64,000 bases of DNA from Candidatus Eiseniibacteriota bacterium (GTDB taxonomy: Bacteria; Eisenbacteria; RBG-16-71-46): NCBI GenBank assembly GCA_963717505.1, contig OY970342.1, positions 832,001 through 896,000 on the forward strand. Reading direction: 5' to 3'. The position numbers were made by a program, and so were the translations under genes. The notes beneath the pieces are model-generated. The model searched no databases. It saw only the letters and a list, made by a program, of their open reading frames with translations, and was not told where the DNA came from. Shown here piece by piece: positions 1 through 62,247 of the stretch (positions are counted from its first letter, which is position 1; every line of letters begins with the position of its first letter).

Positions 1-739
1 CGGCCTTCACCTGGTGGTCGGCGGTGACCTTGACCTCGCGACCGCCTCCGGCCAGATCGGTCACCGACACCTGGGTGTTGGTGATGCCGGCTGCGGCGAG
101 CTTCTGCTGGATCTCCTGCTGCAACTGCTGAGCCGACTTGCCGTCGACGCTGACCTGGATCACGCGATCGCGGGCGTAGGCGTACATCGAACCCCACACG
201 CGCTCGGTCTTCGGCGTCGCAGTCCAGGTCGCTTCATATCCACGCTCGCGCAGCGCCTGGCCGAACGCCTCCGCGCGCAACGCTCCCGACTTGCCGGGCG
301 CGTTGGCCTCGAGAACGAACCGCGGTGCGCCATTTTCGACCTCCGCCCGAACCCGCACGCCCTGGACCCCCAGGGCCGATTCGAACTCGCCGGCGATGCT
401 CTTCACCTGCGTCAGGTCATTCAGCCCGGTCAGGGTCAGCGCGACCTCATGACTCGAAGTCTTCTCGTACGAAAAAGGCACCACCATCAGGGCCACGACG
501 ATCACCGCTGCGGCAGCGGCCGTCGCCAGCCATGGATTTCGTTTGATTGGATTCATCATGGACAACCAGCGCTCCTTCCTGGGCTCGGCCGCATCGACGC
601 GGCGCGAGCGCGCCAGAGACAGGCTGTGCTCCAGACGGGGCAAGTCGCGAAGGGTTTCGGTCCGCAATGCCTCGAGATCGCCCGCCGCCTCACGCGGCAA
701 CCCGGCGTCACGAAGGTCCTCGGGCCTCGACTCAGTCAT
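1..739 (-). CDS. Putative membrane-anchored anti-sigma factor / hypothetical protein (3' end runs off the window)
   Basis: Not in the ORF track. Translated by hand from ATG at 739 (AGGAG RBS, start overlaps the end of the ECF gene): MTESRPEDLRDAG...NPWLATAAAAAVIVVALMVVPFSYEKT..., open to position 1. One TM helix; lies directly downstream of an ECF sigma factor. Confidence 0.7.
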   Translation of the reverse strand, partial: MTESRPEDLRDAGLPREAAGDLEALRTETLRDLPRLEHSLSLARSRRVDAAEPRKERWLSMMNPIKRNPWLATAAAAAVIVVALMVVPFSYEKTSSHEVALTLTGLNDLTQVKSIAGEFESALGVQGVRVRAEVENGAPRFVLEANAPGKSGALRAEAFGQALRERGYEATWTATPKTERVWGSMYAYARDRVIQVSVDGKSAQQLQQEIQQKLAAAGITNTQVSVTDLAGGGREVKVTADHQVKA

Positions 740-1367
740 GGCTTCGCTCCTTTCCCACTGCGGCGGTCGGAACCAACCGGGGAATCGAGTTCACGCGTCC
801 CACGACCTGCGCGTCGCGATGAGGCGACGTCGCCGCCGAGGCCAGCCCCAGGCGTTCGTAGTGGCGGCGCAACCGCTCCCGGCCGCGGACCAGGCGCGAC
901 TTGATCGCCGACAACGACACCTGCTGCATGGTTGCGATCTCCTCGATCGAGAAGCCGTCCAGCTCGAAGAGGACGATGGCCTCCCGTTGCACGGGCGGCA
1001 GCGTCGCGAGGGCGGCAGACATCCGCCGCGTCTCGATCGTCTGCTCGCCCCACCGGCTGCCGTCCTCGCTTGCCGGCTCGGCGCCGCTCGGGAACGCGGC
1101 CTCCCAGGGGAGCATCCGCTTCCAGAACGACCGCCGCGCCCGGCTCCGATGCCTGGACAACAGCGTGACGAAGAACCAGGACCGGAACTTCGATTCGTCG
1201 CGAAGCGTGTCGAGCTTGTCGAACGCCCGGAGCACGGCCTCTTGATAGAGATCGTCCCCGTCGGCCGTCGAGCGGCACAGGCGACGTGCGGTCGCCACCG
1301 CCTGCTCGTGAAACGGTGCGAGCAGGGCGGCCAATCGGCGCCAGCGGGCTTCGGTCAAGTCGGTCAT
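732..1367 (-). CDS. ECF (sigma-70 group 4) RNA polymerase sigma factor
   Basis: Region 2 'DGDDLYQEAVLRAF...FRSWFF' and region 4 'LPPVQREAIVLFELDGFSIEEIA...SAIKSRLVRGRERL'. Confidence 0.93.
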   Translation of the reverse strand: MTDLTEARWRRLAALLAPFHEQAVATARRLCRSTADGDDLYQEAVLRAFDKLDTLRDESKFRSWFFVTLLSRHRSRARRSFWKRMLPWEAAFPSGAEPASEDGSRWGEQTIETRRMSAALATLPPVQREAIVLFELDGFSIEEIATMQQVSLSAIKSRLVRGRERLRRHYERLGLASAATSPHRDAQVVGRVNSIPRLVPTAAVGKERSHD

Positions 1368-1397
1368 CCTCGCGTCGCGTTCAGTCCTCTGGAGCGG

Positions 1398-1425
1398 AGA
1401 CGCCTGGAGGGGGTGAAAAAGTCGC
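1398..1425 (-). promoter_or_regulatory. Possible ECF-type autoregulatory promoter
   Basis: Minus strand GCGACT-N17-CGTCT about 30 nt upstream of the ECF start; resembles ECF -35 (GxAAC-like) and -10 (CGTC) elements. Confidence 0.3.
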
Positions 1426-1456
1426 AGGGAGTCGACCTCAACCCACGAGTCCGCCG

Positions 1457-2746
1457 TCAGGATGGCACGCTGCTCTTCAACTCCTCGAGGTCGTGCACCA
1501 GCGTGGACGGATCAGGGTAGCGGTCTTCGAGGCGCTTGCACATCATCCGCCGGATCACGCGGGCCAGCCCGCCGTGGACCTCGGGGTTCCGCGCCTCCAG
1601 AGGCTGGGGCTCGACATTGAGGACGTCCTCCAGCACCTGCGTGAGCGTCGTCGGCGCGAAAGGGGGCTCGCCGCACAAAGCGTAGTAATAGGTGGCGCCA
1701 AGCGAATAAACGTCGGAACGCAGGTCGGCGCGCGACCCGTCGAGCACCACTTCGGGGGCCATGTACATCGGGGTCCCGCGCATGTCGCCGGTTCGCGTGA
1801 ACCGCGCGTGCTCGGCGCTCGAGACCATCTTGGCGAGGCCCCAGTCGGCGAGCTTGGGAACGCCGTCGGCAGTCAACAGGATGTTCGCCGGCTTGATATC
1901 GCGGTGCACGAATCTCTGGCGTCCGGCGTGCTCCAGCGCGCCGGCGATTCGGATCAGGTGATTCATCGCGTCGTGGCTGGTTAGAGGTCCAGCGCGCTCG
2001 ATGCGCTCGCGCAGCGAGCCCCCTTCCATGTACTCCATCGCGAGAAACAGCAGCCCGCCGGCCTCACCGAAGTCCAGCACGCGAACGATGCTCGGATGGT
2101 TCATCCGGAGGCCCGTCTGGGCTTCGCGGATGAAGAAAAGCGCCGTCTGCGAGCTTCCCTGGAAATCGATCGTCTTGATGACGCAAGGCTCCTCGACTCC
2201 GACCGGTCGCGCGAGGAAGGCGACACCGGTCGAGCCGTTTCCGAGCTGGCGGAGAAGTGTGTACCCCTCGATCGAGGGCAGGGTCGATCCGGTCCTCTGG
2301 CCGCCGTCCTCCCGTCGCGGCTCCTCCGCGGTCGTCGCAGCCGGCGGCACGTGGGGCACAGCGTGCGGCGTGGGGGCGACATCGGTCACCCGCTGGAGCG
2401 TCGCGTGGAGGATCGCGGTCCGGTTCGGCGTTCCCGCAGGCGGAGAATCGCGTCCGAGGAGGAAGGTGATGCGCGCCTCCCCGACGAAAAACTCCTCGCC
2501 GGGATCGAGTGCCAACCGCTCGATGCGGCGGCCCCGGGCGTAGACGCCGCCCGGCGCGCCTAGATCGGTGACGAGTAGCTGGTGGCCGACCACTTCGACC
2601 CGACAGGGACCGTGATCGGGTTGCCGTGCGCCGGGAACGCCCGCCGTATCGGCGTCCAGAATCATCGACCGGTTCTCGATCTCCACGCTCTGAGCGGGAG
2701 CACCGTTCCGCTCGATGCGCAACGTCGCGAGCATGCAGGTACCCAT
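1457..2746 (-). CDS. Hanks-type Ser/Thr protein kinase with degenerate N-terminal FHA-like domain
   Basis: GNGSTG loop, VIK, HRDIKPAN, DWG, GTPMYMAPE. The N-terminal beta domain 'LLVTDLGAPGGVYARG' is FHA-like. ORF is open to 2908; the start is more likely at 2746 or 2734. Confidence 0.9.
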   Translation of the reverse strand: MGTCMLATLRIERNGAPAQSVEIENRSMILDADTAGVPGARQPDHGPCRVEVVGHQLLVTDLGAPGGVYARGRRIERLALDPGEEFFVGEARITFLLGRDSPPAGTPNRTAILHATLQRVTDVAPTPHAVPHVPPAATTAEEPRREDGGQRTGSTLPSIEGYTLLRQLGNGSTGVAFLARPVGVEEPCVIKTIDFQGSSQTALFFIREAQTGLRMNHPSIVRVLDFGEAGGLLFLAMEYMEGGSLRERIERAGPLTSHDAMNHLIRIAGALEHAGRQRFVHRDIKPANILLTADGVPKLADWGLAKMVSSAEHARFTRTGDMRGTPMYMAPEVVLDGSRADLRSDVYSLGATYYYALCGEPPFAPTTLTQVLEDVLNVEPQPLEARNPEVHGGLARVIRRMMCKRLEDRYPDPSTLVHDLEELKSSVPS

Positions 2747-2906
2747 CGGGTCTGTGTCTTCCGGGAGCAGCTGGAACGATACACCCGTGCTCCACCCTCC
2801 GGCCACCCAAGCCTCGGCCGGCGCGGCCGGGCGGAGGACAGAGGCGTGGATGACGGCTCCTTCATGAGGTATCTTCTCCTCCCTTCCTCTCGACTCAGGA
2901 GGTGCC

Positions 2907-3311
2907 ATGGCCGTAGCAGATCAGCCGCCGGACGCTGGCAGTGCCTTGGAGGCTACCGTCGCATCGCCGCAGACGCGACCCCGCCCGGATCGCACGATGG
3001 GCGCGGACCCGCTGGCCGCGATTCGACTCGAAGTCGTCGGGGGACCGATGGACGGCATCACGGTCCAGAGCGACGCCGAAACCGTGACGATTGGCCGGGA
3101 TCCGGACTGTAACGTCTCGCTGCCGCTGGACCTCCTAGTGTCGAGTCATCACGCCCGCATCGTGCGCGAGGGCGGAGCATTCTGGCTCGAGGATCTCGGC
3201 AGCCGCAACGGCAGCTACGTGGGCGAGCGCAAGGTGGACGGCCGAGTTCAGATCACCCCGGGAACGCTTTTCGTTCTCGGGAGTACCTGCCTCGAGTTCG
3301 TGCCCGCCTGA
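2907..3311 (+). CDS. Standalone FHA domain protein
   Basis: 'VTIGRDPDC...VSSHHARI...LEDLGSRNGSYV' has the intact GR, SxxH and NG pThr-binding residues. Start may be at 2997. Confidence 0.9.
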   Translation: MAVADQPPDAGSALEATVASPQTRPRPDRTMGADPLAAIRLEVVGGPMDGITVQSDAETVTIGRDPDCNVSLPLDLLVSSHHARIVREGGAFWLEDLGSRNGSYVGERKVDGRVQITPGTLFVLGSTCLEFVPA

Positions 3312-3324
3312 CGAGCACAGCGCT

Positions 3325-5571
<2,247 letters not shown>

Positions 5572-5578
5572 TCCTTCG

Positions 5579-6373
5579 TCAGCGAGCGTCCCGCCGGGAT
5601 CGGCCAGATGGCAGCTTCTCGTTGTTCCGCGCGCCGCCTCGCGGCTCGACCGGAGCGAGCCGCGCATCGCCCGAGGCATCGAGCATCGGGCTCGAGCGGT
5701 CTTCGGCGTGAGGTCCGTCCGAGTAAAGGAGCTTGAGCATCCCCCAGCTGACCTTGGGAACGTAGTCGGCGTCCATGCCATCCCAGGTCTGCGCCGGACC
5801 CGGCGCCGCAGACACCGGTGCGACGAAGTGAAAACGAGAGGCCGTGCGCTCGGGCTCACGCCGGCGCCGGCTGGCCGTGCGGACCCGGCGTCCGTCGAAG
5901 ATCAGGATTGAGAACCGCAGCGGCCGATCCGGAGCCAGGGCGACGCCGGCCACAACCGCCGTCACCGTGTCCCGCGCGGGATGGCGGCGAATACCGATGT
6001 GCCTCCACCCCGGATCGCGGAGCCGCTCGCCCCCATCGATTGACACCAGGAACCGGTACCAGACGACGACGGTCGAATCGCTGTTCGACCCGCGCTCTGG
6101 ATTCCACAGCTCGCACGACAGGGTGAGCGTGTCCTGGCTCACCGACGTCACGCGCAGATGGCCGGCCTTGACCGCCGCCGCGGCGTTACCCGTTCCGCCC
6201 GCGACCGCAGACCACAGGAGTCCCGACAAGATACCGATCCAGGTGGCGATGCGGCCGAATCGAACCGTAACCACAGCCGGACGGCGAGGGATGCAATCCA
6301 TCCCTCGCCGCGGCGTGACGTCACGATCGCCGGTCCTGACCCGATTGAGGACGATCATGACTCCGGTCCTCAC
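5579..6373 (-). CDS. Hypothetical exported protein
   Basis: 264-aa ORF with a hydrophobic segment (IATWIGILSGLLWSAVAG) followed by a beta-rich domain. GTG start overlaps the TGA of the upstream gene (GTGA); true start uncertain. Confidence 0.6.
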   Translation of the reverse strand: MRTGVMIVLNRVRTGDRDVTPRRGMDCIPRRPAVVTVRFGRIATWIGILSGLLWSAVAGGTGNAAAAVKAGHLRVTSVSQDTLTLSCELWNPERGSNSDSTVVVWYRFLVSIDGGERLRDPGWRHIGIRRHPARDTVTAVVAGVALAPDRPLRFSILIFDGRRVRTASRRRREPERTASRFHFVAPVSAAPGPAQTWDGMDADYVPKVSWGMLKLLYSDGPHAEDRSSPMLDASGDARLAPVEPRGGARNNEKLPSGRSRRDAR

Positions 6374-6762
6374 CAGCAGAAGTTGGGGTAGGAGACCGCC
6401 CGTTGCTGCTGATTGACCACGGTACCGGGGACGGTCTCGACCTCGATGCTGAGCTTGAGGCCGTGGGCGTCGCGCGGTGCGTAGAGCCGGAACACCTGAC
6501 CGGGCGCCAGGGGCATCAGCACCAGCTGCCAGGTGTGCAGCGGCGGCATGAACTCGCTGGCGCGAGCGATCAGGCGATAACGCATGGTCGAGGAGGTGGT
6601 GGTGCCGGCGTTGCGGATGTTGAAGATGTTGGAGCCCCGGCCGCAGACAGATTCGACGTTGAGGGTGACCTGGGCGTTGCTGCCATCGGCATGGGCGAAC
6701 GGAATCGAGAGGCAGAGGGCGGCGACCAGGGTCAGCATGAGCGACTTGCGATTGCGGTACAT
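6370..6762 (-). CDS. Small secreted protein, 130 aa (copy 1)
   Basis: AAGGAG RBS; signal peptide MYRNRKSLMLTLVAALCLSIPFAHA; beta-sandwich-like mature part with two Cys. Protein identical to 11323-11715. Confidence 0.85.
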   Translation of the reverse strand: MYRNRKSLMLTLVAALCLSIPFAHADGSNAQVTLNVESVCGRGSNIFNIRNAGTTTSSTMRYRLIARASEFMPPLHTWQLVLMPLAPGQVFRLYAPRDAHGLKLSIEVETVPGTVVNQQQRAVSYPNFCW

Positions 6763-7097
6763 GGTGGTGATCTCCTTAGAGTTGGTTGAGAGTGAGTGGT
6801 TGAAGTGAGTGAAGGGTTTTTGGTGGAGCGATCGAGCGAACTGGGATCCTCGGGGTAGAGCCGGTGGTGTTCGGGTGGTGCCGTCCTCCTTTCGCGAGAG
6901 CCATCGAGTGGTGAGTTGCTTCGCGGGGGAGGTAGAGCAGCGCACGTGCCGGTCGTGCGGCGGAGCGGGGCAAGGGCGCGAGGTGGCTCGGGGAGAGCGA
7001 GTTAGCGGGATGGGGGACGCGGGGCGGCGGCGCGGGCGGACTCCGCGCGCGGAGAGAAACTCTACGTCCGGCGAGGATTCCTCTCAGGACGTGAAGA
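6372..7097 (-). repeat. 726-bp inverted repeat, left arm
   Basis: Reverse complement of 10988-11713. The one mismatch I found is 6987 vs 11098 (non-coding part compared base by base; coding part gives identical translations). Confidence 0.97.
6936..6951 (-). promoter_or_regulatory. Sigma54 -24/-12 promoter (copy 1)
   Basis: CGGCACG-TGCG-CTGCT, i.e. GG-N10-GC, matching TGGCACG-N4-TTGCW. Confidence 0.7.
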
Positions 7098-7260
7098 GGG
7101 ACACGGGTGGGCGGCTTCGGGTGCGGGGGCCTTGTGACCCCATGAAGGCTCGCCTACATTTGCCCTGCTTGGAGAATTCTCGAGTGAGACAAGCGGCTCG
7201 ACCGCCATCAGGGATGCTCGAGGCGCAGCACGATCACCCGATCGACCGGAGGCAATCATC

Positions 7261-9204
7261 ATGATCGGCAGCGTGATCGACCGAACCTATCGCGTTGTCC
7301 GTCTGGTCGGCGACGGCGGGTTCGGAGTGGTTTACGAGTGCCAGGAACTGGAGCTCCATCGCTCGGTCGCCCTCAAGATGCTGAAGCCGGAGGTGACCGG
7401 AGAGAGTGAGATGCGGCGGTTCCTGGCGGAAGCGAAGAACATGGCCAGCTTGAACCACGCCAACGTGGTTCACATCTACCGTTTCGGCGTCTTCGAGGAC
7501 CGACCCTACATCGTCATGGAGTTCGTGCGCGGGCAAACACTCGATGAGCACGCGAAGCGGCAGCCTTCGATCCGGAACGTCCTCCAAGTGATGACCCAGG
7601 TGGCATCCGGCCTCTCCGCCATACACGGGATGACGATCGTGCACCGCGACCTGTCGCCAACGAACATCATGATCACCGAGGACGGCACGGCGAAGATCCT
7701 GGACCTCGGTCTGTCGCGGGACATGAGCAGCATGTCGGGCATGAACTCGAACCATCAGCTTCGAGGGACGCTCCCGTATGTCTCACCCGAGCAAATCGAG
7801 GAGCGGGGGGCCACGACTCTCTCGGAAATCTTCTCGTTCGGCGTGATCCTGTACGAGCAACTGACCGGGCAGCACCCGTTCCACGCCGAGCACCCGGTCT
7901 CGCTGATCTACAACATTGCCCAACGGGATCCGGACCCGGTCGGCGATCACCTGGAGAACTGCCCGCCGGAGCTGGCGGACCTTGTGCACGAATGCCTGCA
8001 CAAGAAGCCTGAGGATCGGCCGGCCAACATGGCGACGGTGAAGGAACGGCTCGACCGCATCTTGTCACGCCCGAGCCTCACCGCAGCCTCGCGCCCCGTC
8101 GTGGTAACCGCTGTCGAACCGCGGGCGACGCCACGCAATCCATACTTGAACCGCGTCATGATCAAGCACCGCGCCGACTTCTTCGGCCGCTCGCAGGACG
8201 TCAAGCGAATCTTTGCGCGGCTCAACGCTACGCCTCCCGGATCGATCTCCATCGTCGGGGAGCGCAAGATCGGGAAATCCTCGCTGCTGAACCACGTGTA
8301 CGCGCGCCAAACCCGGCAGACGTTCCTCGAGAATCCCGACGCGATGGTCATGGTGTTCCTGGACCTCCAAGAGGAGAAGGGAATGTCCATGCAAAGCTTC
8401 GTCAAGACCCTGCTCGGCATCGCCAACTATGAATTGCGCGGACGGCTGGACGTCTCCAGCTGCGCCCACAACCTCGACGGCGTGAAGGACTTGGTGCAGC
8501 GCCTGGACGCTGCGAACTACCGGCTGGCGATCCTGCTCGACGAGTTCGAGGGAGTGACGACGAACCCGAATTTCACGCTCGAGTTCTTCTCGTTCCTGCG
8601 CTACCTGGCCAATCACTACAACGTGGCCTACCTGACGTCTTCGGCATGCGACCTCCAGGTTCTCTGCCACACGAAGGAAATCTCGGACTCGCCATTTTTC
8701 AACATTTTTTCGACGATGCGTCTGGGGGTCTTCGAGCGATCGGAAGCCGATGAGCTCATTCGCGTTCCTTCGGAGCGTGTCGGCAAGCCGCTCGCCACCC
8801 ATACGGATCGGATCCTCGAGATGACGGGGCTGTTCCCGTTCTTCATCCAGATGGCGTGTTCACACGCCATCGAGCACCTGGACGAACACCCCGAGGCGAA
8901 GGCGCCGGATTTCGACGCGATCCGCCGCCGCTTCTACGAGGAGGCACGGCTCCACTTCCGCTATGTGTGGGATGGACTGGACGCGCACGAGCGGAGCACT
9001 CTGGTTCGGGTGGCTCAGGGCCGAGGCATTCCGGACTCGCTGAAGCACGTCCTGTCGGAGCTCGAGGTCCGGCACTACGTCGATGAAACACAGCGAGGCC
9101 CGCGGCTCTTTGCCGGTACGTTCGGACAGTACGTCCGCGAGGAAGCGAAGCGGATGCGGAAGCCTTCGCTCCTCGAGCGCATGTTCCAGGGCGCGGGGGG
9201 GTGA
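7261..9204 (+). CDS. Ser/Thr kinase fused to a STAND-like P-loop ATPase
   Basis: Kinase: GDGGFG, VALK, HRDLSPTN, DLG, GTLPYVSPE. ATPase: NPY...FFGR, Walker A GERKIGKS, Walker B LLDEFE, GLFP (GxP-like). GGAGG RBS. Confidence 0.9.
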   Translation: MIGSVIDRTYRVVRLVGDGGFGVVYECQELELHRSVALKMLKPEVTGESEMRRFLAEAKNMASLNHANVVHIYRFGVFEDRPYIVMEFVRGQTLDEHAKRQPSIRNVLQVMTQVASGLSAIHGMTIVHRDLSPTNIMITEDGTAKILDLGLSRDMSSMSGMNSNHQLRGTLPYVSPEQIEERGATTLSEIFSFGVILYEQLTGQHPFHAEHPVSLIYNIAQRDPDPVGDHLENCPPELADLVHECLHKKPEDRPANMATVKERLDRILSRPSLTAASRPVVVTAVEPRATPRNPYLNRVMIKHRADFFGRSQDVKRIFARLNATPPGSISIVGERKIGKSSLLNHVYARQTRQTFLENPDAMVMVFLDLQEEKGMSMQSFVKTLLGIANYELRGRLDVSSCAHNLDGVKDLVQRLDAANYRLAILLDEFEGVTTNPNFTLEFFSFLRYLANHYNVAYLTSSACDLQVLCHTKEISDSPFFNIFSTMRLGVFERSEADELIRVPSERVGKPLATHTDRILEMTGLFPFFIQMACSHAIEHLDEHPEAKAPDFDAIRRRFYEEARLHFRYVWDGLDAHERSTLVRVAQGRGIPDSLKHVLSELEVRHYVDETQRGPRLFAGTFGQYVREEAKRMRKPSLLERMFQGAGG

Positions 9205-9263
9205 CGCTCGGCGGCGCCGCCGCCCCCGGCGACCGCGGCGCACGAGTCACCGAGCCCGGAGCA

Positions 9264-10868
9264 TCATCCCCCGAGGCCGTACTCCTTGAGCTTCTTGTAG
9301 AGGTAGGACTCGCTGATTTTGAGTCGCGCCGCGAGCTTGGCCCGCGTCATCCGCGGATAGCGGCGGAGGGCTTCCTCGAGCAACGCCTTCTCCTGCTGAG
9401 CCAGACTTGCGGTCAGCCCCTCGTCGATGTCGGCGACCTCGCCGCCGAGAGCGACTCCCGGCGTTGCACCCCGTTCAGGGGGGGCCTGGTCGGCGGCCGC
9501 GGCCCCTGAGCCACGCGTCGGGCCCAGCAGCCGTAGAACCATCCCCTTCCCGACCCGGCCGTCGGGCTTCTCCAGGACGAGGCGCGCCGCGAGTTGTTCG
9601 AGAGAGCGAACGTTGCCCGGCCAGGCGAAGTCCAGAGTCCTCAGGAACTCCTCTGCCTCGGGCTCGAGCTCGACCCAGCGCCCCTCTTCGCTCTGATCCA
9701 GGCAATGGCGTAGGACCAGGGGAATGTCCTCGACACGTTCGCGGAGCGGCGGGATGCGCACGGGAACGAAGTTGAGCCGCTCGAAGAGATCCCGGCGGAA
9801 CCGGCCCTGCATCACCTCTTCCTCCAGGTCGCGATTCGTGGCGGCAATCACCCGGACGTCGGACTTCAGTTCCTTTGGATCTCCGACACGCTCGTATGTC
9901 CGCTCCTGCAGCAGCCTCAGCAGCTTTGGCTGGATCTCGAGAGGAAGGTCCCCGATCTCGTCCAGGAACAACGTCCCCCCGTCTGCCGCCGGGACCTTCC
10001 CCAGACGATCGCTGACCGCACCGGTGAACGCTCCCTTGCGGTGGCCGAACAGCTCTGCTTCGACCATGCCACGTTCGAGGGAGGGGCAGAAGACCGTGAT
10101 CAACGGCTGCCGTGCGCGGTGGCCACCGTAGTGAATGATGCGCGCCAGGATGCTCTTGCCGGTACCCGTCTCACCCAGGATGAGAACGGGGAAGGTGGCC
10201 GAGGCGATCTTGTGCACTTGAGTCCCCAGTTGCTGAACCACCGGGGATTTTCCGATGAAGCGGCCGAAGGACCAGTCGCGGGACTGCGCGTCGCGGCTGG
10301 CTTCGGCTTCTTCGCGGAACTTCGACTCCGAAATCACGAGCTGATCCCGCTCGTGCAGGACGCTCCGGCTGGCCCTCAGCGCCTCGAGGACGGGGCCGGC
10401 CAGGTCGAGCAGGCCCCGCAGCAGTTCCTGGTGTTCGCGGGTGAAGTGTCCGGCCCGCCCGTTCTCGAGATGGACCAGGGCGGCAATCCCGTCGCTGGTC
10501 TTGATCGGCATGCACAGCACCGCCGCCATATGCACCGCCATGACCGAGCGCTGATGCTTGAAGCGCGGATCCAGAACCGCGCTGTAGAGGGTGATGCCCT
10601 CGCCGGTCTTCAGGACCTGTTCGAAGATGCCCTGGCTGAACGACGCGGACTCCCCATCGAGTCGTTCGGGCGAGAAGTTGTGGAGCACCTGGAAACTCAG
10701 CGTCCCACCACTCGACACCTCCACGAACACGCCGCGATCGGCCTGGGTCCGTGCGACCGCCTCGTCCAGAATCGTCCGCAGGACCGTGATGGGTTCGGCG
10801 ATCTGACACAGAACGGCCCGCAGAGCGTCCAGTAGAGGTTTCGAAGGAAGTGCTTCGGCAGCCGGCAT
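9264..10868 (-). CDS. Sigma54-dependent transcriptional activator (GAF-AAA+-HTH bEBP)
   Basis: GAF-like N-terminus (DPRF...AVLCMPI), GETGTGKS, ELFGHRKGAFTGA, LFLDEIG, WPGNVR, C-terminal Fis-type HTH. Confidence 0.95.
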   Translation of the reverse strand: MPAAEALPSKPLLDALRAVLCQIAEPITVLRTILDEAVARTQADRGVFVEVSSGGTLSFQVLHNFSPERLDGESASFSQGIFEQVLKTGEGITLYSAVLDPRFKHQRSVMAVHMAAVLCMPIKTSDGIAALVHLENGRAGHFTREHQELLRGLLDLAGPVLEALRASRSVLHERDQLVISESKFREEAEASRDAQSRDWSFGRFIGKSPVVQQLGTQVHKIASATFPVLILGETGTGKSILARIIHYGGHRARQPLITVFCPSLERGMVEAELFGHRKGAFTGAVSDRLGKVPAADGGTLFLDEIGDLPLEIQPKLLRLLQERTYERVGDPKELKSDVRVIAATNRDLEEEVMQGRFRRDLFERLNFVPVRIPPLRERVEDIPLVLRHCLDQSEEGRWVELEPEAEEFLRTLDFAWPGNVRSLEQLAARLVLEKPDGRVGKGMVLRLLGPTRGSGAAAADQAPPERGATPGVALGGEVADIDEGLTASLAQQEKALLEEALRRYPRMTRAKLAARLKISESYLYKKLKEYGLGG

Positions 10869-10921
10869 CGAACGAAGCTCCTGCGGATCGACAGAAACGC
10901 AATCGATAGAAAAGCGCTCGG

Positions 10922-10927
10922 ATTATA
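10922..10927 (-). promoter_or_regulatory. Sigma70-type -10 box for the bEBP gene
   Basis: Perfect TATAAT on the minus strand about 55 nt upstream of the bEBP start, in GC-rich DNA. No good -35. Confidence 0.45.
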
Positions 10928-10992
10928 GGACGGCTGGGGTCTCCGGAGCACTCCGGAGGGATGCAAAGCCTCTCGCGCCGCGCACGGTCTTC

Positions 10993-11044
10993 ACGTCCTG
11001 AGAGGAATCCTCGCCGGACGTAGAGTTTCTCTCCGCGCGCGGAG
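10993..11044. promoter_or_regulatory. Candidate upstream activator sequences (two palindromes); mirrored at 7041-7092
   Basis: ACGTCCtGaGAGGA-a-TCCTCgCcGGACGT (10993-11021) and perfect CTCCGCGCGCGGAG (11031-11044), about 90-140 bp upstream of the -24 GG. Confidence 0.5.
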
Positions 11045-11133
11045 TCCGCCCGCGCCGCCGCCCCGCGTCCCCCATCCCGCTAACTCGCTCTCCCCGAACC
11101 ACCTCGCGCCCTTGCCCCGCTCCGCCGCACGAC

Positions 11134-11149
11134 CGGCACGTGCGCTGCT
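11134..11149 (+). promoter_or_regulatory. Sigma54 -24/-12 promoter (copy 2)
   Basis: CGGCACGTGCGCTGCT with GG at 11135-11136 and GC at 11147-11148; divergent from a sigma54 activator gene. Confidence 0.72.
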
Positions 11150-11322
11150 CTACCTCCCCCGCGAAGCAACTCACCACTCGATGGCTCTCGCGAAAGGAGG
11201 ACGGCACCACCCGAACACCACCGGCTCTACCCCGAGGATCCCAGTTCGCTCGATCGCTCCACCAAAAACCCTTCACTCACTTCAACCACTCACTCTCAAC
11301 CAACTCTAAGGAGATCACCACC

Positions 11323-11715
11323 ATGTACCGCAATCGCAAGTCGCTCATGCTGACCCTGGTCGCCGCCCTCTGCCTCTCGATTCCGTTCGCCCATGCCGAT
11401 GGCAGCAACGCCCAGGTCACCCTCAACGTCGAATCTGTCTGCGGCCGGGGCTCCAACATCTTCAACATCCGCAACGCCGGCACCACCACCTCCTCGACCA
11501 TGCGTTATCGCCTGATCGCTCGCGCCAGCGAGTTCATGCCGCCGCTGCACACCTGGCAGCTGGTGCTGATGCCCCTGGCGCCCGGTCAGGTGTTCCGGCT
11601 CTACGCACCGCGCGACGCCCACGGCCTCAAGCTCAGCATCGAGGTCGAGACCGTCCCCGGTACCGTGGTCAATCAGCAGCAACGGGCGGTCTCCTACCCC
11701 AACTTCTGCTGGTAA
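11323..11715 (+). CDS. Small secreted protein, 130 aa (copy 2)
   Basis: Same protein as 6370-6762; AAGGAG RBS preceded by a C/A-rich tract. Confidence 0.85.
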   Translation: MYRNRKSLMLTLVAALCLSIPFAHADGSNAQVTLNVESVCGRGSNIFNIRNAGTTTSSTMRYRLIARASEFMPPLHTWQLVLMPLAPGQVFRLYAPRDAHGLKLSIEVETVPGTVVNQQQRAVSYPNFCW

Positions 11716-11742
11716 CGCCGGTTCGACAGGCGGCAATGAATG

Positions 11743-11774
11743 CGAGGGGTGGCGAAAGCCACCCCTCGTTGTTT
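11743..11774 (+). terminator. Rho-independent terminator
   Basis: CGAGGGGTGGC-GAAA-GCCACCCCTCG (11-bp perfect stem) followed by TTGTTT. Confidence 0.85.
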
Positions 11775-11801: not shown

Positions 11802-14800
11802 TCATCGGATGAGCACCATGCGGGCGCGCAGCACCTGACCACCGTGCATCAGTCGAATGAAATAGAGCCCCGCCCGCAGACGCGGAGAGTCGAGCGTCAC
11901 CACGTGGCTCCCCGGGCCGAGCCCGCCGACATCGCGGCGCAGCACCCGGCGCCCGGCGAGGTCGATCACCTCGAGCACCCCCGGGTCGCGGCTCGGCAGG
12001 GTGAATGCGATCCGTGCCGTTCCTATCGCGGGGTTGGGACGCGCTCCGGCCAGCGCCAGCTTCGGCGGTCCTTCAATCTCGACATCAGTGGTCGAGGTGA
12101 TCTGGACGTCAAATCCGGGCGGACCCGGCGGGTCCTCGCGATTGTCCACGTGGTCACGGGCACGGCTGTAGAACGCGTACGTGTGGGGCTGGAGGTCACC
12201 GGGGCGCCGCTCGAAGATGGCGGAGGTGAGCGGGGTGGTGAGCCACTCATCTTTGAAGGCACCGTCCTCGAAGTAGTAGACCGTGTAGTTCAGGACGTCG
12301 GCGGGGTCGCCCTCCGGTGCCCAGCTCACCGTGAAGCTGCGCTCCATCTGGGGATTGCCCAACGTCAGCACGTGGCTGGCCGGCGGCGTGTCGTCCACGT
12401 AGTTGGTCCACGCCGGGATCGGGACGGTCATCGGCGGGTTGGTGTCGAATCGGATGGTCGCCGAGTTGGTGATCTCGGTGTGCTGGGGCAGGCCGCTGCG
12501 CGGTCGCACGGTGAACAGGACGCTGCCCTCGCCCTCGGGTGAGTTGTTGTTGGCGGGCAGGAACCCGGCGCCGGGCGGCAGCGGACCATTGGGGTTCACC
12601 GAGTTGAAGTACCAGGTCAGCGTCCTGCCGATCAGGGTCACGTTCACGTCGACTCTCAGGTTCGGGTTCAGGAGCTTCGATTCCGTCCGATCGAATTGCG
12701 GGTAGCAATGGTAGGGAGTGCCGGTCGGGTCCTTGCCGAAGGTGACGGTGCCGAGCCTGAGGGTGGCCGGGTCGAGATCGGCGTCGAGCACGTCGGTCAC
12801 CTGCGCGTGCTGGGCGGGGAACATCGCGCCGGCCAGGTTCTCGAAGTGGATCGTGTAGGTGAGGTCATCCCGACTGGTGATGGTGCCGCCGATGCCCCGG
12901 TTGCCGAACTTGTCGCTGGGGTCGACCGCCCCCCCGGCCTCGACCAGCAGCACCTCGCGCCAGGTGGTCGACAGCGACTGGCCGCAGCCCGTCGGAACCG
13001 AGTCCTGCTCGACCGACTGGAGCATGAAGCCCAGCGCCTGGCGGGCTTCGGCCAGCGCGGCGGCCAGGCTGGCGGCGCCCTCGCACTGCCAGCCGATCTT
13101 GGCCCACACCCCGATCCCATTCATCGCCTGGACTTGCGGCTGGCCGGCGAGACTGTCGTTGAGTGCCGTGAGCTGGCTCCCCATGCAGGCGGTGTTGGTG
13201 ATCACGGCGCTCATGCAGTTGCGAAACGCGGTGTTGTTCACCCACGGCGGCGTCAACGCCACGGTGAGCGGGAACGTCGTGGGAGCGGGGACCGTCAGGT
13301 ACACCCTGCGGACCGAGGTCCCCGGCGGCACGCGCGGGATGATCATCGCCAGGTAGCGGCCGCCGGCACTGGCCAAAGTGTCCGGGAGCAGGCTCCAGAT
13401 GGGTTCGCCACCGCTCTGCGGCGGATCGGCGAGCGGGAAGTCGAGCGCGACGGTGGCACTGTCGGGTATGCCAGCGATCCACAGCGGCACGGTCAGCGCA
13501 TCGATATTGCCGGGGTTCTGGAGAACGAGGTCGAAGGCGGTTGGATAGCCGGTGCGGATGACGTCCGGGCCAATGATGTCGACGCGCAACGGGGCCGCCG
13601 CCCCGCTGTCGATGGTGAAGCCGTTGGGCAGGGACGCAGTCTGGAGGTCGGGGTTGACGACCACCACGTCCCACAGGCCCTGCGCCTGGCCGGCTAGGTC
13701 GAAGGTCGCGGTGAGGCTGAGACCATCGTCCGCCACTAGCACCCCGCTGCCCGGAATGTCCGGTTGTCCCGAGCGCGAGAGCCTGACCGTGGCGCCGTTC
13801 AGCAGGTTGTGTCCCGCGACCGTAACCGTCACGACGCCAGTGTTACCGCCGCTCGCTGGCTGCACCGCCTGGACGTCCGGCATGGCTGCGATGGCAGCGA
13901 TGCCGCTCTGTGGCAACCCGCCGATGCTGGTGAAGGACCCGCCTGCGTAGATCGTAGAGCCGCTCACCGTGAGGGCCAACACGAGGCTGGCGGCGTCCGG
14001 ATTCCAGGCGGTGGCGGCACCGGCCGTGGCATCGAGGGCGGCGACGTAGTTACGCGCTTGCGCGCCGATGCTGGTGAAGTCCCCGCCCGCGTAGACCGTG
14101 GAGCCGCTCACCGCCAGGGCGCGGACCCCGGCGTTGGCGCTCGGGCTCCATGCGGAGGCCACTCCGGTGATGGTATCAAGGGCGGCGACGTAGCTGCGCG
14201 CTTGTGCGCCGATGCTGCTGAAGGCCCCGCCCGCGTACACCGTTGAGCCGTTCACCGCCAGGGCGAGGACGAAGCTGTTGGCGTTTGGGTTCCAGGCAGT
14301 GGCGAGCCCGGTGGTGGCATTGAGCGCCGCGATGCGGTTGCGCGCCTGCCCGCCGATGCTGGTGAAGTCCCCGCCCGCATAGACCGTGGAGCCGCTCACC
14401 GCCAGGGCGGAGACGTAGCCGTTCGCGTTCGGGTTCCAGGCGGTGGCCATGCCGGTCGTGGCATCGAGGGCGGCGATGTAATTGCGCGCTTGCCCGCCGA
14501 TACTGGTGAAGTCGCCGCCCGCGTAGACCGTGGAGCCGCTCACCGCGAGGGCCCGGACACTCTGGTCGGCGTTCGGGCTCCAGGCAGTGGCGAGCCCGGT
14601 GGTGGCATCGAGCGACGCGATCCGGTTGCGCGCCTGCCCGCCGATGCTGGTGAAGCCCCCCACCGCGTAGACGGTGGAACCGCTCACCCCCAGGGCCAAG
14701 ACGGGCCCATCGGCGTTCGGGTTCCAGGCGGTGGCGGCCCCGGTTGTGGCGTCCAGGGCGGCGATGTTGTTGCGCGTCTGCCCACCGAGGCTGGTGAATT

Positions 14801-15989: not shown

Positions 15990-16180
15990 GAGATGACCCT
16001 CCTCGCGATGCCCAGCACCGCCATGCTCTCCTTGGACCTCAACGGATGTACACGGCGACGACGCGAAGGTTGGCAGTCGCCCCGGTTGCGAGCGGTCGCC
16101 GAATTCATCCGAACACCCCAATCGCGCCGGCACCGACTGCCACGCGGCGCATAGCTCGGGCTTCGGCCCAACCTGAGCGG

Positions 16181-20407: not shown

Positions 20408-20608
20408 TGTCCTAGCTCCCGGACCTACGATGCGGGGTGAGTGAGTGTGCGGCCTTCATTACTCCACCTTGGGTGCAACCGCGGCGCCTCGTGGGGGGCC
20501 GGACGAGCGCCAGTCGGGGGATCATACTGTCCGTCTTGAGCCTTGAATAGACCCCTTCTCACCCCCACTACTCCGGTTCCCCGGAATGGTTGAAGCCGCC
20601 AGCCCAGA

Positions 20609-23956: not shown

Positions 23957-24030
23957 GGCGCGAGCCTAGCCCTCGGACAAAGGCGCGGGCAACCACCAGG
24001 CCGGGTTGTGTCGAGGGCGACGCGGTTACA

Positions 24031-25122: not shown

Positions 25123-25124
25123 GC

Positions 25125-26740: not shown

Positions 26741-26792
26741 TTGGCTCTGGAGCCTCATCTCTGGGCGGCAATCCGTTTGCGCCGGCCCGGGC

Positions 26793-62013: not shown

Positions 62014-62247
62014 GGCGGCGGCTCTCCGGTGCGGTACAAAGCAAGCAAGGCGCATCGAGTCTAGCAGCGATTCGAGACTCCTCGTGACCGAAATACCGGC
62101 CATCCCGGGCAAAGTTCGGGGGAGCCGGCCGAGGGCGCGGCTCGAGGGCAATCGCTGGAAGTCGTTGGGCCGCTTGCGGGCTCTCGAGGCGGGCTCTGGA
62201 AGCCGGCCCTTGCCCCGGCTACCATGCGTACTCAACCGAGGATCCCC

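What the first reader, a model, noticed from the sequence alone, without database searches (positions are those of the whole stretch)
1..11774. Phosphothreonine-proteolysis-two-sigma signalling island
Seen: within 12 kb are an ECF sigma and probable anti-sigma, an FHA-like kinase, a standalone FHA protein, a Clp ATPase, a second kinase fused to a STAND-like ATPase, a sigma54 bEBP and exported proteins of unknown function. There is no histidine kinase, receiver or phosphatase. Inference: one pathway in which Ser/Thr phosphorylation is read by FHA and reset by Clp unfolding rather than by a phosphatase, with ECF and sigma54 outputs. I do not recognise this combination as a described system; it could be stress, developmental or anti-phage signalling.
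Basis: partly seen in the sequence, partly recalled or inferred. Interest (0 to 1): 0.75.

Follow-up and report, generated by a model that had tools for sequence, protein, structure and literature searches.

The report
Kinase, FHA switch and Clp unfoldase
The 12-kb stretch is not one signalling machine but several neighbouring regulators, and its real core is a recurring pair in which a small phosphothreonine-reading FHA protein appears to dock on a Clp protein-unfolding ATPase next to a protein kinase.

Summary
No histidine kinase, receiver or phosphatase lies in 1-11774.

The one-pathway reading is only partly supported. The supported core is FHA followed by Clp:
- The Clp belongs to a distinct ~750-aa subfamily with no M-domain and a conserved ClpP-type [LIV]GF loop.
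- FHA relatives share a contig with subfamily Clp relatives six times (0.05 expected by chance), in both main clades of the subfamily.
- 80 generic Clp loci contain no FHA or kinase.
- A complex prediction passes (score 0.75, best control 0.41), and its interface uses the family-invariant motifs of both proteins.
- The FHA protein has the GarA/OdhI layout, with a conserved Thr-bearing tail.

Kinase-FHA linkage recurs on two contigs. I found no evidence tying the sigma54 activator, the nSTAND2 kinase or the secreted proteins to this core, and none for phosphatase-free reset.

The parts
2..739 (-). A: partial single-pass membrane protein downstream of the ECF sigma (candidate anti-sigma). It runs off the window's left end.
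   Evidence: GC3 0.82. Its start overlaps the B stop by 8 nt. A TM segment is visible in the translation. No anti-sigma Pfam domain at E<=10.
732..1367 (-). B: ECF sigma factor with an intact DxxDxxQE (D-G-D-D-L-Y-Q-E) core-binding motif.
   Evidence: Pfam Sigma70_r2 3.3e-9 and Sigma70_r4_2 3.1e-15. NCBIfam sigma70-ECF scores 76.2, above its cutoff of 42.9. The motif is read from the translation.
1457..2746 (-). C: soluble Hanks-type Ser/Thr kinase (HRDIKPAN, DWG) with an N-terminal degenerate FHA domain. The start is at one of two ATGs, 2746 or 2734.
   Evidence: Pkinase 9.4e-46. FHA is not detected in C or in P0169 at E<=1 but is detected in orthologues P0171, P0173 and P0174 at 5e-9 to 5e-16. 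Alignment A4 shows that the GR, S and N pocket residues are replaced in C. The A2 FHA HMM hits C at 8.5e-4.
2747..2906 (.). About 160-nt divergent intergenic region between C and D.
   Evidence: Sequence read. An AGGAGG lies 5 nt before the D ATG.
2907..3311 (+). D: 134-aa FHA protein with the GarA/OdhI layout. It has a tail bearing a conserved Thr (T18 region) and an RPRPDR motif, followed by a canonical FHA domain with an invariant EVVGGPMDG.
   Evidence: FHA 2.1e-17. Best solved relatives are GarA 1.2e-9 and OdhI 2.5e-7. Invariant residues come from alignment A2. A Thr lies in the tail window in 30 of 30 sequences.
3325..5571 (+). E: 748-aa two-ring Clp unfoldase of a distinct subfamily with no M-domain. 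It has a conserved [LIV]GF loop at the position of the ClpC-type ClpP-docking loop. It starts 13 nt after the D stop.
   Evidence: Pfam domains. Below the NCBIfam cutoffs for ClpA, ClpB and ClpV. Subfamily membership. Loop and linker comparison. Walker A/B and pore-loop motifs read from the translation.
5579..6373 (-). F: 264-aa protein of no known family with an N-terminal hydrophobic segment. Its start codon overlaps the stop codon of the left G copy (6370-6373).
   Evidence: GC3 0.80. No Pfam, NCBIfam or PADLOC match. The Atlas gives only a 0.78 fn3-like lead. The single-sequence model is unusable, pLDDT 32.7.
6370..6762 (-). G: 130-aa secreted protein from a rare family, predicted to be a 7-strand beta sandwich.
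   Evidence: Signal peptide and AAGGAG ribosome-binding site. 9 relatives among 1.84 billion representative proteins. AF2 model pLDDT 80.4. No PDB fold match at E<=0.001.
6372..7097 (.). Left arm of the 726-nt inverted repeat (G coding sequence plus 335 nt upstream).
   Evidence: 725 of 726 positions complementary to 10988-11713, the single mismatch at 6987/11098, and sharp ends on both sides.
6936..6950 (-). Sigma54-like -24/-12 element GGCACGTGCGCTGCT, about 175 nt upstream of the G ATG.
   Evidence: The pattern GGCAC-N6-TGCW matches only at the two repeat copies in the 64 kb, with 1.13 matches expected. The count alone is not significant; the position and orientation are what suggest a promoter.
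7261..9204 (+). H: Ser/Thr kinase fused to an nSTAND2 NTPase, with no C-terminal sensor repeats.
   Evidence: Pkinase 3.7e-54; nSTAND2 146.1 bits against a cutoff of 24. Walker A and B read from the translation. GC3 0.83, like its neighbours.
9264..10868 (-). I: sigma54 enhancer-binding protein with GAF, AAA+ (GAFTGA) and HTH domains, convergent with H.
   Evidence: Sigma54_activat 4.4e-62, GAF_2 8.1e-12, HTH_8 18.8 bits below its cutoff of 22. GAFTGA read from the translation.
10988..11713 (.). Right arm of the inverted repeat.
11135..11149 (+). Sigma54-like element, second copy, in the 455-nt region between I and G'. The palindrome CTCCGCGCGCGGAG lies about 90 nt upstream at 11031-11044.
11323..11715 (+). 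G': second, identical copy of the small secreted gene.
11742..11769 (+). Terminator-like GC-rich hairpin (12-bp stem followed by a T-rich tail) after G', outside the repeat.

Best explanation
The region holds at least two unrelated regulatory units.

Unit 1 (1457-5571, perhaps extending to position 2) is a kinase / FHA / Clp module. A soluble Hanks kinase (C) is transcribed divergently from a two-gene operon. That operon encodes a GarA/OdhI-like FHA protein (D) and an M-domain-less, ClpC/ClpA-like unfoldase (E) that keeps the ClpP-docking loop.

Proposed mechanism for unit 1:
- D docks on the N-domain of E through its family-specific EVVGGPMDG surface.
- C phosphorylates the conserved Thr in D's N-terminal tail.
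- The phospho-tail, or a phospho-substrate, then occupies D's pThr pocket.
- D thereby works as a phospho-switchable adaptor or gate that decides what E unfolds and passes to ClpP.
- The ECF sigma and the membrane protein (B, A) lie downstream of the kinase on the same strand and are candidate clients or co-regulated genes.

Unit 2 (5579-11769): the GAF-type sigma54 activator (I) probably drives the sigma54-like promoter that sits in front of both copies of the small secreted beta-sandwich protein G, and of F behind the left copy. The kinase-nSTAND2 protein (H) is an independent STAND-type switch.

Shown: the domain content, the subfamily status of E, the recurrence of D-E and C-D linkage, and the conserved motifs.
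Predicted by model: D-E docking.
Inferred: phosphorylation of D by C, ClpP coupling, adaptor or gate function, and I acting on the G promoter.
For: 1. Operon structure. The D stop and E start are 13 nt apart, and C is divergent about 160 nt away.

2. E defines a separate clade. About 46 relatives of 690-785 aa share 53-67% identity, and identity then drops to <=45% for ClpB/ClpC types. The clade is monophyletic with 100/100 support. Its D1-D2 linker is 56-63 aa, against 105-112 aa in ClpC types and 173-177 aa in ClpB types. E's LGF aligns with the [LIVM]GF of ClpC types and has no counterpart in ClpB types. G610 and F611 are invariant in 44 of 44 sequences.

- FHA with Clp on 6 contigs (3170, 3809, 4553, 4805, 7536 and 38410 nt), against 0.05 expected. 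Three fall in each of the two main Clp clades.
- Kinase with FHA on 2 contigs (3268 and 207547 nt), against 0.2 expected.

4. Control. In 80 generic Clp loci (1.35 Mb), tblastn with D, C and H found 0 of 80. HMMs built from the FHA and FHA-kinase alignments found 0 of 8075 ORFs.

5. D resembles GarA/OdhI. These are its best solved relatives. It has the canonical GR, S..H and SRNG residues and a Thr in the tail window in 30 of 30 homologues.

6. Complex prediction of E residues 1-155 with D.
- Score 0.75, best of 3 controls 0.41.
- The pass mark was reached by 58 of 80 solved complexes and 2 of 110 mismatched pairs. These counts hold only roughly because I supplied my own alignments.
- The runs agree in >=84% of contacts, and the partner's pLDDT is >=74.
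- Among the residues named at the interface are D 42-51, which is the invariant EVVGGPMDG, and E 30-32, 82-85, 118-120 and 123. These overlap the subfamily-invariant G30, T82, R84 and R123 that I had listed before the prediction.
- None of the PDB sequence hits of D or E is named as an FHA-Clp complex, so a pass from memory is unlikely.

7. Unit 2. GGCAC-N6-TGCW occurs only in the two repeat arms, correctly oriented about 175 nt upstream of G and G', and one copy lies in the intergenic region next to the activator.
Against: - No contig other than the window is shown to carry kinase, FHA and Clp together.
- Of 27 subfamily Clp hits on contigs >=7.5 kb, only 2 share a contig length with a listed FHA hit. 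This is my count from the lists.
- The closest FHA and kinase relatives (68-69% identity, a 207,547-nt contig, seen on 8-9 contigs) have no listed subfamily Clp of that contig length. The triad is therefore not obligatory, or the fingerprint and the word-based search miss partners.
- No C-type kinase among the best 120 hits shares a contig with a subfamily Clp. The 38,410-nt and 7,536-nt contigs are the informative negatives.
- The contig-length method is indirect and cannot show gene order.
- C's own FHA has lost its pThr pocket, so how it recognises D is unknown.
- No clpP gene lies in the window, so ClpP coupling rests on a loop motif alone.
- The complex score is the model's own confidence, and the alignments fed to it contain the same conserved motifs.
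- The sigma54-like element is not statistically enriched (2 copies of one sequence against 1.13 expected). The looser consensus scan was at chance level (50 matches against 58 expected).
- Co-occurrence could not be tested for A, B, F, H or I.
Confidence: 0.5

Rival explanations
1. All nine genes form one phosphothreonine pathway that is read by FHA, reset by Clp unfolding instead of a phosphatase, and has ECF and sigma54 outputs.
For: The genes cluster tightly within 12 kb and none has a phosphatase, histidine kinase or receiver domain. The kinase-FHA-Clp core is real. The ECF operon lies directly downstream of the kinase on the same strand.
Against: - By gene orientation there are six separate transcription units.
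- The activator senses through GAF and has no FHA or receiver domain.
- B keeps DxxDxxQE, unlike kinase-activated ECF43 sigmas.
- Kinases are dense here, 3 in 64 kb, so H being nearby is unremarkable.
- I found no evidence of H, I, F or G co-occurring with the core.
- The absence of a phosphatase within 12 kb says little.
Confidence: 0.07
2. D and E are a functional pair, but kinase C is not their writer. C serves the ECF sigma / membrane-protein operon it heads, and D is phosphorylated by other kinases or works without phosphorylation as a plain Clp adaptor or inhibitor.
For: FHA-Clp contigs without a detectable C-type kinase exist, notably those of 38,410 and 7,536 nt. C is followed by B and A on its own strand. 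ECF groups with neighbouring kinases are well known (PMC7826278 passage).
Against: Kinase-FHA linkage recurs on 2 contigs, including one of 3,268 nt where the two genes must be adjacent. D's tail Thr is conserved in 30 of 30 homologues. C and D share a divergent promoter region.
Confidence: 0.2
3. A remnant or variant of the type VI secretion threonine-phosphorylation pathway (PpkA-Fha-ClpV, with a VasH-like sigma54 activator).
For: The parts list is the same: a kinase, an FHA protein, a Clp ATPase without an M-domain and a sigma54 activator. In P. aeruginosa, Fha1 is required for ClpV1 recruitment (PMC3953482 introduction passages). That T6SS uses a VasH-like sigma54 activator is recalled, not taken from any call.
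Against: No T6SS structural gene lies in the 64-kb window. E scores 614.9 against the ClpV1 cutoff of 884.95, and D scores 38 against the TagH cutoff of 120.25. E keeps a ClpP-type loop. There is no PppA.
Confidence: 0.02
4. An anti-phage or conflict island, with the kinase-nSTAND2 protein as sensor and effector and the rest as accessories.
For: nSTAND2 was defined in predicted counter-invader systems, and kinase and FHA domains are listed among the effector domains fused to STAND NTPases (PMC8195603 passages).
Against: PADLOC gave only generic kinase, AAA and activator matches. The published nSTAND2 system has two nSTAND2 genes, and here there is one. There are no nuclease, TIR, caspase or other effector domains. 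H has the same GC3 as its neighbours. A plasmid tblastn search found nothing.
Confidence: 0.05
5. Pure juxtaposition. None of the genes, D and E included, work together.
For: The genome is rich in regulators and kinases. Most subfamily Clp hits on long contigs have no listed FHA partner.
Against: There are 6 exact contig matches against 0.05 expected, spread over both Clp clades. The 80 control loci gave 0 hits. The gap between D and E is 13 nt. The complex prediction passed, with an interface built from the invariant motifs.
Confidence: 0.05

Closest known systems
PknG/PknB - GarA (Mycobacterium) and PknG - OdhI (Corynebacterium) FHA switches
   Same: A small protein built from a Thr-bearing N-terminal tail and a canonical FHA domain. 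GarA and OdhI are the best solved relatives of D. OdhI is phosphorylated by PknG at Thr14 (abstract of PMC2784874, seen in the listing). That the phospho-tail folds back on the FHA domain is recalled knowledge.
   Different: The GarA/OdhI targets are metabolic enzymes (recalled). Here the conserved neighbour and predicted partner is a Clp N-domain. D is below the OdhI equivalog cutoff (41 against 200). The EVVGGPMDG and RPRPDR motifs appear specific to this family.
PrkA - ReoM - ClpCP control of MurA degradation (Listeria/Bacillus)
   Same: A Ser/Thr kinase phosphorylates a small protein on an N-terminal Thr, and this gates ClpCP-dependent proteolysis (abstract and section headings of PMC7286690).
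   Different: ReoM is an IreB-type protein, not an FHA protein. The ClpC there has an M-domain. The kinase is a membrane PASTA kinase with a partner phosphatase, PrpC. No gene linkage to clpC is described there.
McsB phosphoarginine - ClpC N-domain degradation tag
   Same: A phospho-mark is read at the N-domain of a ClpP-coupled two-ring unfoldase (recalled knowledge; the abstract of PMC13345244 in the listing mentions pArg directing proteins to ClpC1P1P2).
   Different: There the N-domain binds pArg directly. Here a separate FHA reader of pThr would bridge the mark to the N-domain. E lacks the second 'GTEH'-type site by my reading of the sequence against recalled ClpC motifs; this was not tested.
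Type VI secretion threonine phosphorylation pathway (PpkA, PppA, Fha1, ClpV1)
   Same: A kinase, an FHA protein and an M-domain-less Clp ATPase act together, and Fha1 is needed for ClpV1 recruitment (PMC3953482 passages).
   Different: There are no T6SS genes and no PppA here. E is not a TssH equivalog and carries a ClpP-type loop. D is 134 aa, while the TagH profile is 420 positions long.
ECF43-type sigma factors activated by Hanks kinases (PknT-EcfP, PknS-EcfK)
   Same: An ECF sigma gene lies next to a Hanks kinase gene (PMC13147305 and PMC7826278 passages).
   Different: B keeps the charged DxxDxxQE motif and is followed by a membrane protein. C is soluble, with an FHA-like domain rather than a transmembrane sensor.
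nSTAND2 conflict systems (Kaur, Iyer, Burroughs, Aravind 2021)
   Same: H carries a full nSTAND2 NTPase domain (146 bits).
   Different: There is one nSTAND2 gene rather than two. It has an N-terminal kinase and no recognised death or effector-associated domains nearby.

Membership tests
ClpC/ClpA-type ClpP-coupled class I unfoldase | Two AAA+ rings with Walker A/B motifs and pore loops | tested here: met
   AAA 3.4e-22 and AAA_2 1.5e-57. GDPGVGKT / FFDEIH / KYRG and GPTGVGKT / LFDEIEKA / GYVG are present in the translation.
ClpC/ClpA-type ClpP-coupled class I unfoldase | ClpP-docking [LIV]-G-[FL] loop in D2 | tested here: met
   LGF aligns with the [LIVM]GF of 8 ClpC-type hits and falls in a gap in 5 ClpB-type hits. 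GF is invariant in 44 of 44 subfamily members. That this loop docks ClpP is established knowledge, recalled.
ClpC/ClpA-type ClpP-coupled class I unfoldase | Curated equivalog score (ClpA TIGR02639); ClpC-type M-domain | tested here: not met
   ClpA 633.8 bits against a cutoff of 993.15. The D1-D2 linker is 56 aa against 105-112 aa in ClpC types. E is therefore a separate subfamily.
ClpC/ClpA-type ClpP-coupled class I unfoldase | Physical activation of ClpP | not testable with these tools
   No clpP gene in the window; this needs biochemistry.
GarA/OdhI-type FHA phospho-switch | Canonical FHA domain with pThr-pocket residues | tested here: met
   FHA 2.1e-17. G63, R64, S79, H82, S99, N101 and G102 are invariant in 30 of 30 sequences.
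GarA/OdhI-type FHA phospho-switch | N-terminal tail with conserved phospho-acceptor Thr | tested here: met
   A Thr lies in the aligned 8-10-residue tail window in 30 of 30 sequences, and in 29 of 30 it is followed by a broadly defined residue pair (mostly hydrophobic, but also allowing Q, T, A, R and P).
GarA/OdhI-type FHA phospho-switch | Orthology (NCBIfam OdhI / FhaB equivalogs) | tested here: not met
   OdhI 41 against 200 and FhaB 86.7 against 125. D works like these proteins but is not a member.
GarA/OdhI-type FHA phospho-switch | Phosphorylation of the tail by a cognate kinase and intramolecular binding | not testable with these tools
   Needs a kinase assay.
T6SS threonine phosphorylation pathway | T6SS core genes in the neighbourhood | tested here: not met
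   None among the 38 scanned proteins of the window.
T6SS threonine phosphorylation pathway | ClpV/TssH and TagH/Fha equivalogs | tested here: not met
   614.9 against 884.95 for ClpV1 and 38 against 120.25 for TagH.
ECF43-like kinase-activated ECF sigma | Neighbouring Hanks kinase | tested here: met
   C lies 90 nt upstream on the same strand.
ECF43-like kinase-activated ECF sigma | Loss of the DxxD charges in sigma2.2, with a phospho-acceptor Thr | tested here: not met
   B reads D-G-D-D-L-Y-Q-E. The feature is defined in PMC13147305 (passage).
nSTAND2 two-gene conflict system | nSTAND2 NTPase domain | tested here: met
   PF20702, 146.1 bits against a cutoff of 24, covering profile positions 4-278 of 279.
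nSTAND2 two-gene conflict system | Two adjacent nSTAND2 genes | tested here: not met
   Only H carries the domain in the window. The feature is taken from the Figure 6C legend of PMC8195603.
Sigma54 enhancer-binding protein with cognate promoter | AAA+ Sigma54_activat domain with GAFTGA | tested here: met
   4.4e-62; GAFTGA in the translation.
Sigma54 enhancer-binding protein with cognate promoter | -24 GG / -12 GC promoter at a target gene | tested here: inconclusive
   GGCACGTGCGCTGCT lies upstream of G and G'. It is the only match in the window, but 1.13 matches are expected by chance.
Anti-sigma factor (for A) | Recognisable anti-sigma domain (zf-HC2, RskA and similar) | tested here: not met
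   No such Pfam hit at E<=10. Only the position and the single TM segment fit.

The most novel reading that the evidence does not exclude
D is a dedicated phosphothreonine 'degron reader'. It is an FHA adaptor permanently docked on the N-domain of a ClpP-coupled unfoldase through its EVVGGPMDG surface. Its free pThr pocket captures proteins marked by the neighbouring kinase and feeds them to proteolysis. This would be a bacterial pThr-directed degradation pathway, analogous to pArg-ClpC and to eukaryotic phosphodegrons, shared by Eisenbacteria-like and Planctomycetota-like lineages, and possibly controlling the adjacent ECF sigma / membrane-protein pair.
Probability: 0.22. Interest if true: 0.8.

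Novelty: new variant of a known kind. Interest (0 to 1): 0.55.

Why it matters
Kinase-gated proteolysis is known in bacteria through phosphoarginine (McsB-ClpC) and through ReoM. I found no description of an FHA reader coupled to a Clp unfoldase outside type VI secretion. Three full-text searches returned nothing on it (no papers; one unrelated paper), and a fourth (12 of 103 papers listed) showed none; subscription journals were not covered.

If D is a pThr-dependent adaptor or gate of a ClpP-coupled unfoldase, phosphothreonine would join phosphoarginine as a bacterial degradation signal. The system is compact and could be reconstituted from three genes plus ClpP.

The result also shows that the apparent 'island' is a neighbourhood of separate regulators in a kinase-rich genome. 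That is a caution for reading large regulatory clusters as single systems.

Tried and rejected
1. The single genome-contig scan used an alignment of the Clp subfamily. None belonged to the subfamily, so direct synteny could not be read. I reused the loci as a negative control.
Accession-number adjacency could not be checked.
3. Plasmid tblastn. The nSTAND2 part of H gave no match. D gave 8 generic actinobacterial FHA hits at 30-43% identity, which I did not follow up.
4. PADLOC gave only generic kinase, AAA and RtcR-like matches.
5. NCBIfam: nothing above a curated cutoff except the ECF superfamily model.
6. The sigma54 consensus with 2 mismatches gave 50 matches against 58 expected, which is uninformative.
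7. The sigma70 promoter scan found 0 sites. Terminator-like sites numbered 3 against 5.2 expected, and only the hairpin after G' is well placed.
8. The single-sequence model of F had pLDDT 32.7 and is unusable. The Atlas lead for F was 0.78, below lead level.
9. The G model gave only generic Ig-like folds, with 0 PDB matches at E<=0.001.
10. The G leader RNA is not structured, z = 0.81. Rfam found 0 families in 1-24000, and there are no tRNA genes.
11. The idea that H was recently acquired is rejected. Its low GC comes from GC2 (0.39), and its GC3 of 0.83 matches its neighbours.
12. The third contig-length match between the kinase and FHA lists (3170 nt, P0258, 747 aa, from a different source) is rejected as coincidence, because the genes would not fit on that contig.

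Full report
**Gene map**

The window is 67% GC, and raw ORF lists are dominated by spurious frames. I therefore called genes by third-position GC and assigned domains with Pfam, NCBIfam and PADLOC.

The region 1-11774 holds ten genes in six units, judged by orientation:
- C-B-A on the minus strand (about 2746 down to 2);
- D-E on the plus strand (2907-5571);
- G-F on the minus strand (6762-5579);
- H on the plus strand (7261-9204);
- I on the minus strand (10868-9264);
- G' on the plus strand (11323-11715), followed by a terminator-like hairpin at 11742-11769.

None of these genes carries a histidine kinase, receiver or PP2C domain. The 'probable anti-sigma' A is a partial single-pass membrane protein whose start overlaps the ECF stop, but no anti-sigma domain is detectable even at E<=10.

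Positions 6372-7097 and 10988-11713 form an inverted repeat that is complementary at 725 of 726 positions and has sharp ends. Each arm carries the whole coding sequence of the 130-aa secreted protein G plus 335 nt upstream. The repeat brackets the kinase-nSTAND2 gene H and the sigma54 activator I. The single mismatch argues for two real copies rather than an assembly duplication.

**The Clp ATPase**

- E has both AAA+ rings, with intact Walker and pore-loop motifs. It falls below the curated cutoffs for ClpB, ClpA and ClpV.
- Its relatives form a sharply separated group. About 46 proteins of 690-785 aa share 53-67% identity, and sources name some of them Candidatus Eisenbacteria or Planctomycetota. 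Identity then drops to <=45% for ordinary ClpB/ClpC.
- In a maximum-likelihood tree the 44 aligned members are monophyletic (100/100). They split into two well-supported clades of 13 and 30 rows.
- The D1-D2 linker is 56-63 residues in the subfamily, 105-112 in ClpC-type proteins and 173-177 in ClpB-type proteins.
- E's LGF aligns with the [LIVM]GF loop of ClpC types, which ClpB types lack. The GF is invariant in the subfamily.
- From established knowledge of Clp ATPases (recalled), that loop docks ClpP. E is therefore most likely a proteolytic unfoldase rather than a ClpB- or ClpV-like remodeller. This is an inference, and no clpP gene is in the window.

**The FHA protein**

- D is preceded by a strong ribosome-binding site. 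Its homologues have the same length, which fixes the start at 2907.
- It has all the canonical pThr-pocket residues and a family-specific invariant EVVGGPMDG.
- Its N-terminal tail carries a Thr in the same short window in 30 of 30 homologues, followed in many of them (chiefly the closer relatives) by an RPRPDR-like motif.
- Its best solved relatives are GarA and OdhI, the classic 'Thr tail plus FHA' switches. It is below their equivalog cutoffs, so it works like them but is not a member.

**The kinase**

- C is soluble and has catalytic motifs (HRDIKPAN, and DWG in place of DFG).
- Pfam does not recognise its N-terminal ~95 residues as FHA, either in C or in its closest relative. Pfam does recognise FHA in more distant orthologues, at 5e-9 to 5e-16.
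- The alignment shows progressive loss of the GR, S and N pocket residues across these orthologues. 'FHA-like kinase' is therefore correct, but this FHA probably no longer reads pThr.

**Co-occurrence**

The only genome scan returned generic Clp loci. I used them as a control. Around 80 generic Clp genes (1.35 Mb) there is no D-like FHA, no C- or H-like kinase (0 of 80 each), 2 ECF hits and 1 activator hit by tblastn. HMMs of the FHA and FHA-kinase alignments gave 0 hits among 8075 ORFs.

For the subfamily itself I compared the 'longest contig' length and source reported for each hit in the three protein searches.
- FHA hits and subfamily Clp hits share six exact lengths (3170, 3809, 4553, 4805, 7536 and 38410 nt), all from matching sources. 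Near-miss counts predict 0.05 such matches by chance.
- On contigs of 3-5 kb the two genes must be adjacent.
- Three of the six matches lie in each main Clp clade, so the link is old or recurrent.
- Kinase and FHA hits share two contigs (3268 and 207547 nt).
- A third match (3170 nt, a 747-aa kinase from another source) cannot physically fit on the contig and is a coincidence.

Evidence against an obligatory triad:
- Only 2 of 27 subfamily Clp hits on contigs >=7.5 kb have a listed FHA partner.
- No C-type kinase shares a contig with a subfamily Clp.

The method is indirect and depends on a word-seeded search, so these absences are soft. The triad is nonetheless shown only in this window.

**Complex prediction**

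The E N-domain (residues 1-155, from alignment A1) together with D (alignment A2) passed.
- Score 0.75, best of three controls 0.41.
- The pass mark was reached by 58 of 80 solved complexes and by 2 of 110 mismatched pairs. These counts hold only roughly, because I used my own alignments.
- The runs agree in at least 84% of contacts, and the partner's pLDDT is at least 74.
- The named interface on D is residues 42-51, exactly the EVVGGPMDG motif, plus 74-77 and 126-127.
- On E the named interface includes 30-32, 82-85, 118-120 and 123. It overlaps the subfamily-invariant G30, T82, R84 and R123 listed before the prediction.
- The pThr-pocket residues of D are not among the named contacts. This leaves open both an adaptor reading (pocket free for phospho-clients) and a switch reading (the phospho-tail competing nearby).
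- None of the PDB sequence relatives of D or E is named as an FHA-Clp complex.
- The score is the model's confidence, not a measurement.

**The right half**

- I is a complete sigma54 activator with a GAF sensor and GAFTGA. It has no FHA or receiver domain, so nothing in its architecture links it to phosphothreonine signalling.
- The only matches to GGCAC-N6-TGCW in the 64 kb are the two repeat copies, oriented toward G and G' about 175 nt upstream of their ATGs. One copy lies in the intergenic region next to I.
- The count alone is not significant (1.13 expected); the placement is what suggests a promoter. Palindromes with CTCCG/CGGAG half-sites lie upstream.
- G belongs to a very small family, with 9 relatives among 1.84 billion representatives. 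It models as a 7-strand beta sandwich with no specific structural match.
- F has no detectable relatives or fold.
- H has a full nSTAND2 domain. That family was introduced as part of a predicted two-gene counter-invader system (PMC8195603, passages read). Only one such gene is here, and PADLOC recognises nothing specific.
- H has the same GC3 as its neighbours.
- With three kinases in 64 kb, a second kinase a few kb from the first is expected by chance.

**The ECF sigma**

Kinase-associated ECF groups are well known (PMC7826278 passage). In the best-studied group, ECF43, the DxxD charges of sigma region 2.2 are typically lost and replaced by a phospho-acceptor Thr (PMC13147305 passage). B keeps D-G-D-D-L-Y-Q-E. 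It is therefore more likely controlled by the downstream membrane protein than by direct phosphorylation. Whether C or E acts on A or B is untested.

**Verdict**

The single-pathway interpretation is only partly supported.

The best-supported picture is a kinase / GarA-like FHA / ClpP-type unfoldase module, a new variant of kinase-gated Clp proteolysis. The closest known precedents are:
- PrkA-ReoM-ClpCP (abstract of PMC7286690);
- McsB-pArg-ClpC (recalled);
- the PpkA-Fha1-ClpV1 pathway of type VI secretion (PMC3953482 passages).

This module sits beside an ECF operon and beside an unrelated sigma54 unit and an nSTAND2 kinase.

Three full-text searches for FHA together with Clp and kinase terms returned nothing on an FHA-Clp adaptor (no papers; one unrelated paper). 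A fourth held 103 papers, and none of the 12 listed describes one. Subscription journals and supplements were not covered.

Noticed in passing
window 6372-7097 and 10988-11713: A 726-nt inverted repeat, 725 of 726 positions complementary with sharp ends. It duplicates the small secreted gene G with its promoter region on both sides of the kinase-nSTAND2 and sigma54-activator genes. No recombinase or transposase lies nearby. Recombination between the arms would invert the 3.9-kb segment without changing G expression.
   Followed up: partly
window 11802-16184 and 16181-20455 (minus strand): Two tandem giant paralogues (1460 and 1424 aa) built from roughly 11 and 11 copies of a 144-nt (48-aa) repeat matching the DUF5122 beta-propeller. 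They have DUF7619 and a C-terminal sorting-type domain, and share 300-nt blocks that are 88-95% identical. This shows that recent duplication or gene conversion is common in this neighbourhood.
   Followed up: no
window 20609-23965 (minus), 32832-35084 (plus), 56821-62574 (minus): Large secreted proteins (Kelch propeller, a protein of no known family, and a 1917-aa DUF5122 protein) all end in a FlgD_ig-type C-terminal domain. This is probably a lineage-specific sorting tag.
   Followed up: no
alignment A4; window 2460-2746: The kinase's N-terminal FHA decays stepwise across orthologues. P0173 and P0174 keep GR, SxxH and NG. P0171 and P0172 lose the Arg and the Asn. The window's C and its two closest relatives lose all three. 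The last group also has DWG instead of DFG in the kinase.
   Followed up: partly
window 10941-10958 and 11031-11044 (also 7041-7054): Three palindromes share CTCCG/CGGAG half-sites: CTCCGGAG twice, and CTCCGCGCGCGGAG. They lie between the activator gene and the sigma54-like element, and two of them are outside the repeat, so they are unique to the right copy. They are candidate activator binding sites. The long palindrome with up to 2 mismatches is not enriched in the window (4 matches against 4.15 expected).
   Followed up: partly
window 24031-28301 (minus): A VWA protein, an amidase and an AAA_5 (MoxR-like) ATPase lie in a row. This may be a MoxR-VWA chaperone pair with an amidase inserted.
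   Followed up: no
window 53940-56303 (plus) and 41090-43876 (minus): A third Ser/Thr kinase, fused to TPR repeats, and a PAS-rich hybrid histidine kinase with a receiver domain lie elsewhere in the window. They show how regulator-dense this genome is.
   Followed up: no
window 11160-11322: The roughly 170-nt leader of G/G' is C/A-rich and unstructured (z = 0.81), and a strong AAGGAG site lies 9 nt before the ATG.
   Followed up: yes
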